Shown one piece after another: positions 17,901-41,266 of a stretch of 64,000 nt of DNA. The notes below the pieces were generated by a model. It did no database searches. It was not told where the DNA came from and worked only from the letters and a program-made list of their open reading frames with translations. Both the position numbers and the translations under genes were made by a program. Origin of the DNA: Escherichia coli (GTDB lineage Bacteria > Pseudomonadota > Gammaproteobacteria > Enterobacterales > Enterobacteriaceae); assembly GCF_041886205.1 (NCBI RefSeq), contig NZ_CP169029.1. The stretch is one strand, 5' to 3'. The first letter of the stretch is position 1. Every line of letters starts with the position of its first letter.

Positions 17901-18066
17901 CGTGGAGTTTCCTATATCAAACTTGATAATAGAGAAGTGGTCAGACAACTAAAAACGCAGTGACGGTATAACAAAGGACGGCAGGCAACAAATCATTACT
18001 GACAGTTTGTTGATTTTTCTCAAGGTTAATTCTCCTGACCCAGTTTGAGCCAGGAGAGCTGCTAAA

Positions 18067-25346: not shown

Positions 25347-25591
25347 TACTTACCCGCAGAAATCATTCTGCGGGTATTAAGTTGCTTTCTTATAAATTAA
25401 TACAGATTAATCCTGGTTATTTGCTTTATTTATCACCAGTCATCCGGTATAGTTCTTCATAATCTCTGCAAAATCATCGTGTTGTAATATTCTCTCATCA
25501 CTCTCCATCAAATTTTCTTTTTTTCTCCATAATTGGCGCAAAAGTGTTTTTTACACTTTCATTGTTTTACCGTTGCTCTGATTAATTGACG

Positions 25592-27786: not shown

Positions 27787-27883
27787 TGTTGACTCCGAAT
27801 GCTGGTTATCTATCCAGTGTAACAGGCGGGGGGCGATTAAAAAAGAGGCGGGTTGATGACAAAGGTTACACCGTCTGACGTGC

Positions 27884-27973
27884 TACGCCTGTCAGGCCTA
27901 TTCGACTCCTGCAATGTATTGAATTTGCAAAGTTTTACAGGCCGGATAAGACGCTTACGCCATATCCGGCATG
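27884..27973. repeat. REP/BIME cluster between cho and nadE
   Basis: acgcctgtcaggcctat and caggccggataagacgcttacgccatatccggcatg flank a ctgcaatgtattgaatttgcaaagtttta linker. Confidence 0.75.
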
Positions 27974-32805: not shown

Positions 32806-34158
32806 ATGAGCCAGAAATTAAAAGTCGTCACTATTGGTGGCGGGAGCAGCTATACCCCGGAGTTACTGGAAGGATTTATTAAGCGTTATCACGAATTGCC
32901 GGTCAGCGAATTATGGCTGGTGGATGTCGAAGGTGGTAAAGCGAAACTGGATATTATTTTCGATCTCTGCCAACGGATGATTGATAACGCTGGCGTCCCG
33001 ATGAAGCTTTATAAAACGCTGGATCGCCGCGAAGCATTGAAAGATGCTGATTTCGTTACTACCCAACTGCGCGTTGGCCAATTACCGGCGCGTGAACTGG
33101 ATGAACGTATTCCATTAAGTCATGGTTATCTTGGTCAGGAAACCAACGGCGCGGGCGGTTTGTTTAAAGGTCTGCGTACCATTCCGGTGATTTTTGACAT
33201 CGTAAAAGATGTCGAAGAACTTTGTCCGAATGCATGGGTGATTAACTTCACTAACCCGGCGGGAATGGTCACTGAAGCCGTTTATCGTCATACCGGATTT
33301 AAACGCTTTATCGGCGTGTGTAATATTCCGATCGGCATGAAGATGTTTATTCGCGATGTTCTGATGCTGAAAGACAGCGATGATTTATCTATCGATCTGT
33401 TCGGCCTCAACCATATGGTGTTCATTAAGGATGTGCTGGTAAATGGCAAGTCGCGCTTTGCCGAATTGCTTGATGGTGTGGCGTCAGGGCAGTTAAAAGC
33501 GTCCTCTGTAAAAAATATTTTCGATCTGCCATTTAGTGAGGGCTTAATTCGTTCGTTAAATCTGCTGCCATGTTCTTATCTGCTGTATTACTTCAAGCAG
33601 AAAGAGATGCTGGCTATTGAAATGGGCGAATACTACAAAGGCGGCGCACGAGCACAGGTAGTACAGAAAGTCGAGAAACAACTTTTTGAGCTGTATAAAA
33701 ATCCGGAGTTGAAAGTTAAGCCGAAAGAACTGGAACAGCGCGGTGGGGCTTATTACTCTGATGCAGCGTGCGAAGTGATCAACGCTATCTACAACGACAA
33801 GCAAGCTGAACATTACGTTAATATCCCGCATCATGGGCATATTGATAATATTCCGGCAGACTGGGCGGTAGAAATGACCTGTAAGCTGGGGCGCGATGGC
33901 GCGACGCCACATCCGCGCATTACGCATTTCGATGATAAAGTGATGGGGCTGATTCACACCATTAAAGGCTTCGAGATTGCTGCCAGCAACGCCGCACTTA
34001 GCGGAGAATTTAACGATGTGTTACTGGCGCTAAACCTTAGTCCGTTGGTGCATTCCGATCGCGATGCTGAGCTGCTAGCACGCGAGATGATTCTGGCGCA
34101 CGAGAAATGGCTGCCAAATTTTGCCGACTGCATCGCAGAGCTTAAAAAAGCACATTAA
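32806..34158 (+). CDS. chbF: Glycoside-hydrolase family 4 6-phospho-beta-glucosidase, 450 aa
   Basis: ORF track 32806..34158; N-terminal NAD-binding GGGSSYTPE. Confidence 0.93.
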   Translation: MSQKLKVVTIGGGSSYTPELLEGFIKRYHELPVSELWLVDVEGGKAKLDIIFDLCQRMIDNAGVPMKLYKTLDRREALKDADFVTTQLRVGQLPARELDERIPLSHGYLGQETNGAGGLFKGLRTIPVIFDIVKDVEELCPNAWVINFTNPAGMVTEAVYRHTGFKRFIGVCNIPIGMKMFIRDVLMLKDSDDLSIDLFGLNHMVFIKDVLVNGKSRFAELLDGVASGQLKASSVKNIFDLPFSEGLIRSLNLLPCSYLLYYFKQKEMLAIEMGEYYKGGARAQVVQKVEKQLFELYKNPELKVKPKELEQRGGAYYSDAACEVINAIYNDKQAEHYVNIPHHGHIDNIPADWAVEMTCKLGRDGATPHPRITHFDDKVMGLIHTIKGFEIAASNAALSGEFNDVLLALNLSPLVHSDRDAELLAREMILAHEKWLPNFADCIAELKKAH

Positions 34159-34939: not shown

Positions 34940-35131
34940 TTGCCAGATGCGGCGTGAACCTTGCATCCAGCGATTAATTCCTACAAAGGCGGCGTAACTG
35001 CGCCGCTTGAGACTGCTGACAAACGCAAAACTGCCTGATGCGCTTCGCTTATCAGGCCTACGTTTTTCCTGCAATATATTGAATTTGCACAGTTTTGTAG
35101 GCCGGATAAGGCGTTCACGCCGCATCCGGCA
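34940..35131. repeat. REP/BIME cluster between chbG and katE
   Basis: ctgcctgatgcgcttcgcttatcaggcctac (35031-35061) and gtaggccggataaggcgttcacgccgcatccggc (35097-35130) around a ctgcaatatattgaatttgcacagtttt linker almost identical to the one at 27903-27936. Confidence 0.75.
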
Positions 35132-40513: not shown

Positions 40514-41104
40514 TTAGTATTCAACCTGATGCTTAATAAGCCGATGAAACTGGATCTGCAAGGTATTGATCATTTGCGATGACCAACGAACAGCGCTGTT
40601 TTCGGGTAATGAATGAGGCATCCATACCGACCAGACAAATAATGCCATGCAGATAAAACGTTCCAGTTGGTTGCCCTTTTGGGGAACCAGGATAGGTAAG
40701 CGGAAACGCCAGCGGCATGGCCAGAGCAGGGGAACACCGGCGGGTGTCAGCATATCGGCAAGTATGTGGCTTAAATAACCCAGCACCATTCCTTGTAGCG
40801 CATCAGCCGGAATGAACCAGCTTTCAGGAACCTTGAGGTAAAAGGTTGCCAGCAGCGCAAATACCGCCAGCAGACTGTGGGTAAAACCACGATGCCCAAA
40901 AGCGCGGGCGATCGGTTTTGATATCCACTTTAATCGCTGCCCAAGAAACGACTTTGGGTGATCGATATCCGGTAACAAACACGTCAGGATTGCGGAAGGG
41001 ACAATATGCCACCAGTCACCCTGTGCCAGCACGGGCGTCAGCTCGGCATTTTTGGCAAATACCGCACAAGCAATAGAAAAGAGAAGGTGACCTTCCGCCG
41101 TCAT
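40514..41104 (-). CDS. ydjM: LexA-regulated inner-membrane protein YdjM, 196 aa
   Basis: ORF track 40514..41116; start MTAEGHLLFSIACAVFA. Confidence 0.88.
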   Translation of the reverse strand: MTAEGHLLFSIACAVFAKNAELTPVLAQGDWWHIVPSAILTCLLPDIDHPKSFLGQRLKWISKPIARAFGHRGFTHSLLAVFALLATFYLKVPESWFIPADALQGMVLGYLSHILADMLTPAGVPLLWPCRWRFRLPILVPQKGNQLERFICMALFVWSVWMPHSLPENSAVRWSSQMINTLQIQFHRLIKHQVEY

Positions 41105-41118
41105 GATAAAACTCACTA

Positions 41119-41138
41119 AACTGTCGATACGTACAGTA
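41119..41138. promoter_or_regulatory. LexA box (SOS operator) upstream of ydjM
   Basis: CTGT-cgatacgt-ACAG at 41121-41136, a perfect CTGT-N8-ACAG core, 17 bp upstream of the ydjM start. Confidence 0.7.
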
Positions 41139-41229
41139 TAGGATTTTTATACAGTGCAAGGAAGTGGTGACGGTGTAACTCTTTCTCTTAAATTGACGAT
41201 TAATCCGTCAGTTGAATGCAAATTCAGAT

Positions 41230-41263
41230 AAAAAACCAGGGGCAGCGTGATCACTGCCCCTGG
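41230..41263 (-). terminator. Intrinsic terminator of yniC
   Basis: ccaggggcag/ctgcccctgg 10-bp stem followed on the minus strand by a U6 run, 3 bp after the yniC stop. Confidence 0.8.
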
Positions 41264-41266
41264 TCA

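What the first reader, a model, noticed from the sequence alone, without database searches (positions are those of the whole stretch)
41119..41138. Canonical LexA box in front of ydjM
A perfect CTGT-N8-ACAG core sits 17 bp from the ydjM start, consistent with SOS control of this inner-membrane protein. The adjacent sequence contains a second, degenerate half-site.
Basis: partly seen in the sequence, partly recalled or inferred. Interest (0 to 1): 0.15.

Follow-up and report, generated by a model that had tools for sequence, protein, structure and literature searches.

The report
Known tandem LexA operator of ydjM
This is the already described pair of LexA repressor binding sites that puts the E. 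coli membrane-protein gene ydjM under DNA-damage (SOS) control, so the finding is correct but ordinary.

Summary
On the minus strand, 41138..41119 reads TACTGTACGTATCGACAGTT. Its CTGT-N8-ACAG core ends 17 positions from the A of the ydjM ATG (41104). The window is E. coli chromosome, and this promoter region is identical to K-12 MG1655 across both boxes.

The core pattern alone is not significant (1 found, 0.77 expected). The wider evidence is strong:
- A matrix built from 18 published LexA sites, with ydjM excluded, ranks this box and the adjacent CACTGTATAAAAATCCTATA (41156..41137) as the two best non-training hits in 64 kb.
- No shuffled window out of 300 gave such a pair.
- Both boxes sit at fixed positions (about 14 and 32 nt before the ATG, 18-nt offset) in 78 of 81 Enterobacteriaceae sequences. 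They are far better conserved than ydjM third codon positions.

Literature reports tandem LexA sites at ydjM, a heterology index of 9.0, and LexA-dependent induction. The "degenerate half-site" is therefore the documented second box.

Inferred mechanism: the two LexA dimers cover an invariant TATACT -10 element and its spacer, blocking RNA polymerase until RecA-stimulated LexA cleavage.

The finding is already known and of low interest. The only loose end is an unexplained conserved 28-nt block just upstream of the boxes.

The parts
41119..41138 (-). Proximal LexA box (box 1), TACTGTACGTATCGACAGTT. It has a perfect CTGT-N8-ACAG core and lies 14 nt upstream of the ydjM ATG.
   Evidence: Sequence. 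The matrix score is 15.0 bits, rank 2 in the window, with 15/20 matches to the consensus. It is present at the same place in all 81 Enterobacteriaceae sequences, with a median score of 18.2, and 80 of 81 score at least 14. It is identical in K-12.
41137..41156 (-). Distal LexA box (box 2), CACTGTATAAAAATCCTATA. The left half is good and the right half is non-consensus. It overlaps box 1 by 2 nt, so the box centres are 18 bp apart.
   Evidence: The matrix score is 13.3 to 13.6 bits, rank 3 in the window. It is kept at the fixed 18-nt offset in 78 of 81 sequences. The same 20-mer is listed as a LexA site of b1728 in PMC4576408. Tandem sites are cited as experimentally reported in PMC4951493.
41135..41140 (-). 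Putative -10 hexamer TATACT, straddling the junction of box 2 and box 1. This is an inference; the transcription start was not mapped here.
   Evidence: TATACT is invariant in 81/81 sequences, and it is the -10 of the best sigma-70-like pair in 73/81. CCTATACTG is invariant in alignment A1, including in the two genera that lost the CTGT half of box 2.
41158..41163 (-). Putative weak -35 hexamer, 17 nt upstream of TATACT. It reads TTCCTT here, TTCCGT in K-12 and TTCCGC in most genera. This is an inference.
   Evidence: One search gives TTCCGC-17-TATACT in 51 sequences and TTCCGT in 15. CTTCC is nearly invariant. The strict consensus scan found no promoter, so this element is weak.
41162..41189 (-). 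Conserved block of unknown role directly upstream of box 2. The family consensus is GTGACAAAGAGTTACACCGTCACCnCTT, and the sequence here is AGAGAAAGAGTTACACCGTCACCACTT.
   Evidence: Mean information is 1.69 bits per column across 81 sequences, against 0.95 at ydjM third codon positions and 0.37 further upstream. GTTACA.CGT.AC is invariant or nearly so in A1.
41112..41116 (-). Putative ribosome-binding purine patch, GTGAG here and GTGGG or TCGGG in other genera. It ends 7 nt before the ATG. This is an inference.
   Evidence: Sequence. The 14 nt before the ATG are moderately conserved, at 1.32 bits per column.
40514..41104 (-). ydjM coding sequence (196 aa). It is the regulated gene and encodes a YdjM-family inner-membrane protein, a predicted metal-dependent hydrolase.
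   Evidence: ORF. RefSeq annotation. Pfam PF04307 YdjM, E = 7e-36.
41234..41265 (-). Intrinsic terminator of the upstream gene hxpB (yniC). It isolates the ydjM promoter from read-through transcription.
   Evidence: One search finds a 14-pair stem with 9 G-C pairs followed by a T run, immediately after the hxpB stop at 41267.

Best explanation
The site is the tandem LexA operator of the E. coli ydjM promoter. Two LexA dimers bind two 20-bp SOS boxes that overlap by 2 bp. Box 1 (41138..41119) is a perfect CTGT-N8-ACAG palindrome with a GC-containing spacer. Box 2 (41156..41137) has one consensus half.

Together the boxes cover about 38 bp ending 14 nt before the ATG. This stretch contains the only conserved -10-like hexamer, TATACT, at the box junction, plus the promoter spacer. 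Bound LexA therefore keeps RNA polymerase off the promoter in undamaged cells.

After DNA damage, RecA-ssDNA filaments stimulate LexA self-cleavage. The boxes are vacated and ydjM is transcribed as a modestly induced SOS gene.

Shown here: the sequence, its matrix score, its rank in the window, its identity to K-12 and its conservation in position and spacing across the family. Taken from the literature: LexA binding and LexA-dependent induction. Inferred: the -10/-35 assignment, promoter occlusion as opposed to a roadblock, and any cooperativity between the two dimers.
For: -
- The independent matrix was built from 18 sites in PMC3009722, with ydjM not in the training set. The window's top three hits are the cho box (20.6 bits, a positive control that was in the training set), box 1 (15.0) and box 2 (13.3).
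- Leave-one-out scores of real sites range from 6.6 to 27.6. Box 1 scores above dinG, dinB and polB.
- No shuffle out of 300 gave a pair of hits of at least 13 bits within 30 bp.
- 80 loci from about 25 genera of Enterobacteriaceae carry box 1 about 14 nt and box 2 about 32 nt before the ATG.
- The boxes carry 1.75 bits per column, against 0.95 at third codon positions of the same gene.
- The 56 nt holding both boxes are at least 95% identical in 5417 of 5426 complete E. coli genomes and identical in K-12.
- Literature: (classical SOS gene; HI 9.0; 8.6-fold lexA3 dependence; tandem sites reported; the same two boxes in Salmonella).
- TATACT is invariant in 81/81 sequences and is the best sigma-70-like -10 in 73/81.
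Against: - The CTGT-N8-ACAG core alone is expected 0.77 times per window.
- A single 15-bit hit occurs somewhere in 12% of shuffled windows. About 11 such hits would be expected per genome by chance.
- The box is a weak one: HI is about 9 and the spacer contains ACGTATCG instead of TA repeats.
- No consensus sigma-70 promoter is detected. The -35 is poor, and no mapped transcription start could be found in the data sets searched.
- Induction is modest, at 2.1 to 2.5-fold. A Salmonella gfp fusion gave no detectable fluorescence.
- LexA binding was not tested here, and the primary paper could not be read.
Confidence: 0.93

Rival explanations
1. Only box 1 is a working LexA site. Box 2 is conserved because it is promoter DNA (an A/T-rich spacer and the -10 TATACT), not because LexA binds it.
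For: The right half of box 2 (CCTATA) never approaches ACAG in any of the 81 sequences. Its last four bases belong to the invariant TATACT. Citrobacter amalonaticus (L013) and Intestinirhabdus (L025) have lost the CTGT half but keep CCTATACTG.
Against: The left half [T/C]ACTGTAT is kept at exactly the 18-nt offset in 78 of 81 sequences. A spacer has no evident reason to preserve this. Box 2 is the third-best LexA matrix hit in 64 kb. Tandem LexA binding at ydjM is cited as experimentally reported. The Salmonella study counts two boxes.
Confidence: 0.08
2. The ydjM promoter lies about 60 to 90 nt further upstream, at the CTGAA[A/T]-17-ATTAAT pair assigned by Genomic SELEX. The LexA boxes would then lie in the transcribed leader and act as a roadblock rather than by occluding the -10.
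For: PMC3946193 lists CTGAAA-17-ATTAAT as the RpoD promoter in the yniC-ydjM spacer. That sequence is present in the window as CTGAAT-17-ATTAAT, around 41196..41224 on the minus strand. The proximal candidate has a very poor -35.
Against: This stretch is not conserved outside Escherichia. In most genera a different upstream gene ends about 25 nt before the conserved block, so it cannot be the family-wide promoter. The hexamer assignment in that paper is a sequence pick inside a SELEX peak, not a mapped start. TATACT is invariant in 81/81 sequences.
Confidence: 0.1
3. The palindrome is a chance match with no regulatory role.
For: The core pattern is expected 0.77 times per window, and the matrix score is modest.
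Against: The position, the pairing with a second box, and the conservation across about 25 genera at near-coding-level constraint all argue against chance. So does published LexA-dependent expression.
Confidence: 0.01

Closest known systems
ydjM (b1728) tandem LexA boxes of E. coli K-12 MG1655. The primary paper, Fernandez De Henestrosa et al. 2000, was not readable here and is cited via PMC4951493. HI 9.0 comes from PMC11228462.
   Same: The sequence is identical over both boxes, the 14-nt leader and the ATG. The gene, the neighbours (hxpB upstream, tcyP downstream) and the strand relationship are the same.
   Different: Nothing differs in the operator. The window differs from K-12 at one base 3 nt upstream of box 2 (window 41159, T here and G in K-12), inside the putative -35. 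It also differs at three bases further upstream.
Salmonella enterica ydjM (STM14_1605) SOS boxes
   Same: There are two boxes, 14 and 32 nt from the ATG (PMC8072944). The Salmonella loci fetched here (L031, L047) show exactly that layout.
   Different: The Salmonella box 1 is TACTGTATGAATTGACAGTT, at 19.5 bits against 15.0 here. The E. coli box is a weaker variant with CG steps in its spacer.
Tandem LexA operators of lexA and overlapping strong-plus-weak SOS boxes of colicin genes
   Same: Two closely set LexA sites, one strong and one weak, overlap at their ends. This is the layout that PMC4951493 describes for colicin genes, where cooperative binding enhances repression.
   Different: Cooperativity at ydjM was not shown by anything read here. 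From memory and not tested, the centre-to-centre distance is about 21 bp at lexA and about 15 bp at colicin operators, against 18 bp here.
cho (ydjQ) LexA box in the same window (27800..27819)
   Same: It is a single SOS box a few nucleotides upstream of the start codon of another minor SOS gene, and it is the top matrix hit in the window.
   Different: It uses CTGG..CCAG rather than CTGT..ACAG, is a single box and scores higher (20.6, or 19.4 leave-one-out).

Membership tests
Gammaproteobacterial LexA operator (SOS box) | A 20-bp imperfect palindrome TACTG(TA)5CAGTA with a CTG-N10-CAG core | tested here: met
   Box 1 matches the consensus at 15/20 positions with a perfect CTGT-N8-ACAG core. 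Box 2 matches at 14/20 with only the left half intact.
Gammaproteobacterial LexA operator (SOS box) | A score within the range of validated sites against a matrix built from independent sites | tested here: met
   Box 1 scores 15.0 bits and box 2 scores 13.4, against a leave-one-out range of 6.6 to 27.6 for 18 published sites. Both boxes are at the low end. The published HI is 9.0.
Gammaproteobacterial LexA operator (SOS box) | A position overlapping or adjacent to the core promoter of the regulated gene | tested here: inconclusive
   The boxes end 14 nt before the ATG and overlap the invariant TATACT. No mapped transcription start was found, and the strict promoter scan is negative.
Gammaproteobacterial LexA operator (SOS box) | Conservation in orthologous promoters of related species | tested here: met
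   Box 1 is present in all 81 sequences. Box 2 is kept at the fixed 18-nt offset in 78 of 81. The boxes carry 1.75 bits per column, against 0.95 at third codon positions.
Gammaproteobacterial LexA operator (SOS box) | Bound by LexA protein in vitro or in vivo | not testable with these tools
   Binding is reported in the literature only. PMC4951493 cites Fernandez De Henestrosa et al. 2000 for experimentally reported tandem sites. The primary papers are not held.
Gammaproteobacterial LexA operator (SOS box) | [quoted passage not shown] | not testable with these tools
   Literature reports 2.5-fold AZT induction and 8.6-fold reduction in lexA3. A log2 rise of up to 2.6 is seen in a time course, and 2.11-fold induction with nalidixic acid in Salmonella.
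Tandem (potentially cooperative) LexA operators | Two LexA boxes within about 10 bp of each other or overlapping, at a conserved spacing | tested here: met
   The 20-mers overlap by 2 nt. The 18-nt offset is kept in 78 of 81 sequences.
Tandem (potentially cooperative) LexA operators | Cooperative binding of the two dimers | not testable with these tools
   No binding data are available here. The idea rests only on analogy to the colicin operators described in PMC4951493.

The most novel reading that the evidence does not exclude
The invariant 28-nt block immediately upstream of the two LexA boxes (41162..41189; family consensus GTGACAAAGAGTTACACCGTCACCnCTT, with three GTNAC pentamers) may be the binding site of a second, still unidentified regulator. 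That regulator would most likely be an activator compensating for the very poor -35. ydjM would then integrate the SOS signal with another input, for example envelope or membrane stress. A one-mismatch copy of the block's core upstream of the membrane-protein operon ydjX (17960..17972) could belong to the same regulon.
Probability: 0.25. Interest if true: 0.3.

Novelty: already known. Interest (0 to 1): 0.06.

Why it matters
It matters little. The finding confirms that reading raw sequence can recover a genuine, weak SOS operator. It also shows that the operator (two boxes, fixed 18-nt offset, fixed distance to the ATG) is conserved across Enterobacteriaceae. YdjM's role in the DNA-damage response is still unknown, so the promoter architecture is useful background for anyone studying it. 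That architecture includes the unexplained conserved block, which hints at a second input. The LexA box itself adds nothing new.

Tried and rejected
- The bare pattern CTGT-N8-ACAG is not significant on its own. The argument therefore rests on the matrix, the pairing and the conservation.
- The strict sigma-70 consensus scan found no promoter in 40900..41400. A permissive hexamer scoring, using textbook frequencies from memory, was used instead, and it counts only as inference.
- Two alternative -10 candidates, TATAAA inside box 2 and [T/C]ACTGT with GTTACA at -35, score worse and are less conserved.
- I looked for a mapped ydjM transcription start in the supplements of three genome-wide TSS papers (PMC4782308, PMC6131387, PMC3415461). 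Nothing usable was held.
- The primary papers (Wade 2005, Courcelle 2001, Thomason 2015, Butala 2009) are not in the library. A search for the box sequence itself found no paper.
- Rfam has no family in or near the ydjM upstream region.
- By eye, I compared the conserved upstream block with remembered consensus sites for CRP, OmpR, CpxR, GntR/LacI-type and LysR-type operators, and with sigma-24, 28, 32 and 54 promoters. None fitted convincingly and none was tested with a tool.
- I ran no further search on tracing LexA control of YdjM homologues outside Enterobacteriaceae, because the answer would not change the verdict.

Full report
**What is there.** The window is E. coli chromosome. A 1-kb stretch around the finding matches 5423 of 5426 complete E. 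coli genomes, under the annotations ydjM and hxpB. The local gene order is katE, cedA, tcyP (ydjN), ydjM, hxpB (yniC), yniB, yniA.

ydjM lies on the minus strand at 40514..41104, with its ATG at 41104. It encodes a 196-aa Pfam YdjM-family protein (PF04307, E = 7e-36).

Read on the minus strand, the upstream region is ...GAGTTACACCGTCACCACTTCCTTG CACTGTATAAAAATCCTA TACTGTACGTATCGACAGTT TAGTGAGTTTTATC ATG. Its CTGT-N8-ACAG core is at 41121..41136. The core ends 17 positions from the A of the ATG, and 14 nt separate the 20-mer from the ATG.

**Is it more than chance?** The bare core is not. There is one match in the window against 0.77 expected, and 56 of 100 shuffles had at least one.

I built a symmetrised position matrix from 18 LexA sites tabulated in PMC3009722, a table that does not include ydjM. 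The three best positions in the 64-kb window are:
- the cho (ydjQ) box at 27800..27819, at 20.6 bits; this is a positive control that was in the training set;
- the overlapping 20-mer at 41137..41156, minus strand CACTGTATAAAAATCCTATA, at 13.3 bits.

Leave-one-out scores of the 18 real sites run from 6.6 to 27.6. Box 1 beats dinG, dinB and polB, and box 2 beats polB.

A single hit of 15 bits is not rare. The per-position P is 2.5e-6, which gives about 0.16 expected per window, and 37 of 300 shuffles reach it. Two hits of at least 13 bits within 30 bp occurred in none of 300 shuffles.

**Comparison with other enterics.** A scan of one genome per species returned 80 loci encoding YdjM at 85 to 99% identity. 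They come from about 25 genera, including Escherichia, Citrobacter, Salmonella, Enterobacter, Lelliottia, Kosakonia, Leclercia, Raoultella, Atlantibacter, Cedecea and Phytobacter.

In every locus the best LexA matrix hit upstream of ydjM is box 1. It usually lies 14 nt from the ATG, with a range of 13 to 23 nt. In 78 of 81 sequences, box 2 lies exactly 18 nt further upstream.

Mean information content is 1.75 bits per column in each box. The comparison values in the same genomes are 0.95 at ydjM third codon positions and 1.88 at first codon positions.

Within E. coli, the 56 nt that hold both boxes are at least 95% identical in 5417 of 5426 genomes. They are identical in K-12 MG1655.

The usual family version of box 1 is TACTGTATGAATTGACAGTT, at 19.5 bits. 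The Escherichia version is weaker because of its ACGTATCG spacer.

**What the literature says.**
- ydjM is listed among classical SOS genes (PMC6590174).
- In MG1655 it has HI 9.0, is induced 2.5-fold by AZT, and its expression after AZT is 8.6-fold lower in lexA3 (PMC11228462).
- Its mRNA rises by up to 2.6 log2 units in a ciprofloxacin time course (PMC11002266).
- PMC4951493 states that tandem LexA sites were experimentally reported for E. coli ydjM by Fernandez De Henestrosa et al. 2000.
- PMC4576408 lists CACTGTATAAAAATCCTATA as a LexA site of b1728.
- The Salmonella orthologue has two boxes at 14 and 32 nt, with HI 9.12 and 12.85, and shows 2.11-fold induction by nalidixic acid (PMC8072944).

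The primary papers were not available. Binding itself is therefore taken at second hand.

**How it most likely works.** The strict promoter scan finds nothing. A permissive scoring picks TTCC(G/T)(C/T)-17-TATACT as the best sigma-70-like pair in 73 of 81 sequences, and TATACT is invariant in all 81.

TATACT (41140..41135) is made of the last four bases of box 2 and bases 3 to 4 of box 1. With that assignment, box 1 spans roughly -10 to +10 and box 2 spans roughly -28 to -9. Two LexA dimers would then occlude the -10, the spacer and the start site. This is the standard SOS mechanism, relieved by RecA-stimulated LexA self-cleavage.

This assignment also explains why the non-consensus right half of box 2 (CCTATA) is invariant. 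It explains too why the two genera that lost the CTGT of box 2 still keep CCTATACTG.

These steps are inferences. No mapped start was found.

A rival promoter is CTGAA[A/T]-17-ATTAAT, about 60 to 90 nt upstream, proposed from Genomic SELEX (PMC3946193). It would make the boxes a roadblock in the leader. However, that stretch is specific to Escherichia. In most genera a different upstream gene ends about 25 nt before the conserved region.

An intrinsic terminator of hxpB at 41265..41234 isolates the promoter from upstream transcription.

**Loose end.** Conservation does not stop at box 2. A 28-nt block (41162..41189) is conserved at 1.69 bits per column. Its family consensus is GTGACAAAGAGTTACACCGTCACCnCTT. 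Conservation then drops abruptly to 0.37 bits further upstream.

The block holds three GTNAC pentamers, and E. coli has lost the leftmost one. With the proposed -10, the block would lie at about -61 to -34. That would fit an activator site next to a poor -35, but I could not identify a factor.

The core GTTACANCGTCAC has four matches with at most one mismatch in the window, against 0.21 expected. One of them lies 50 to 62 nt upstream of ydjX (17960..17972), and two lie in coding sequence. This is weak evidence and was not followed further.

**Verdict.** The finding is real, correctly interpreted and already known. It is the tandem LexA operator of ydjM. Interest is low.

Noticed in passing
window 41162..41189 (minus strand): A 28-nt block directly upstream of the LexA boxes is as conserved as the boxes across 81 Enterobacteriaceae sequences (1.69 bits per column). 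Its consensus is GTGACAAAGAGTTACACCGTCACCnCTT, with three GTNAC pentamers, and E. coli has lost the leftmost one. No known motif was assigned. It may be an activator site next to the weak -35.
   Followed up: partly
window 17960..17972 (minus strand): GTTATACCGTCAC, a one-mismatch copy of the core of that block, lies 50 to 62 nt upstream of the ydjX start, in the same orientation as the gene. The pattern has 4 matches with at most one mismatch in the window against 0.21 expected, and two of them are in coding sequence.
   Followed up: partly
window 27800..27819: The best LexA matrix hit of the whole window, CACTGGATAGATAACCAGCA on the minus strand at 20.6 bits, lies about 15 nt upstream of cho (ydjQ). 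This is the known cho SOS box, and it served as a positive control.
   Followed up: yes
window 41119..41138 versus loci L007 to L081: The Escherichia version of box 1 (spacer ACGTATCG, 15.0 bits) is clearly weaker than the version in most other genera (TACTGTATGAATTGACAGTT, 19.5 bits; median 18.2). LexA repression of ydjM may therefore be looser in E. coli.
   Followed up: partly
window 41159: There is a single-base difference from K-12 MG1655 (T here, G in K-12) 3 nt upstream of box 2, inside the putative -35 hexamer. Three further differences lie in the hxpB terminator and spacer.
   Followed up: no
window 27894..27935 and 35054..35096 (minus strand): There are two Rfam ES036 (CssrF) sRNA matches. 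One lies in the nadE-cho intergenic region, just upstream of the cho LexA box. Other Rfam hits are the Phe leader at 52817..52941 and STnc540 at 56781..56939.
   Followed up: no
window 25422..25441 and 33689..33708: These are the next-best LexA matrix hits, at 11.5 and 10.8 bits. By coordinate mapping to NZ_CP138428.1, the first lies in the spy-astE intergenic region and the second inside celF (chbF). Both fall within the range reached by shuffled sequence, whose mean maximum is 11.95, so they are probably chance.
   Followed up: partly
L001 6226..6516 (window about 43625..43915): The gene between yniA and pfkB is called ghoS (type V antitoxin) by PGAP in strain 6EVA. In the K-12 record it is ydiZ, a putative endoribonuclease. 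This is a naming difference only.
   Followed up: no
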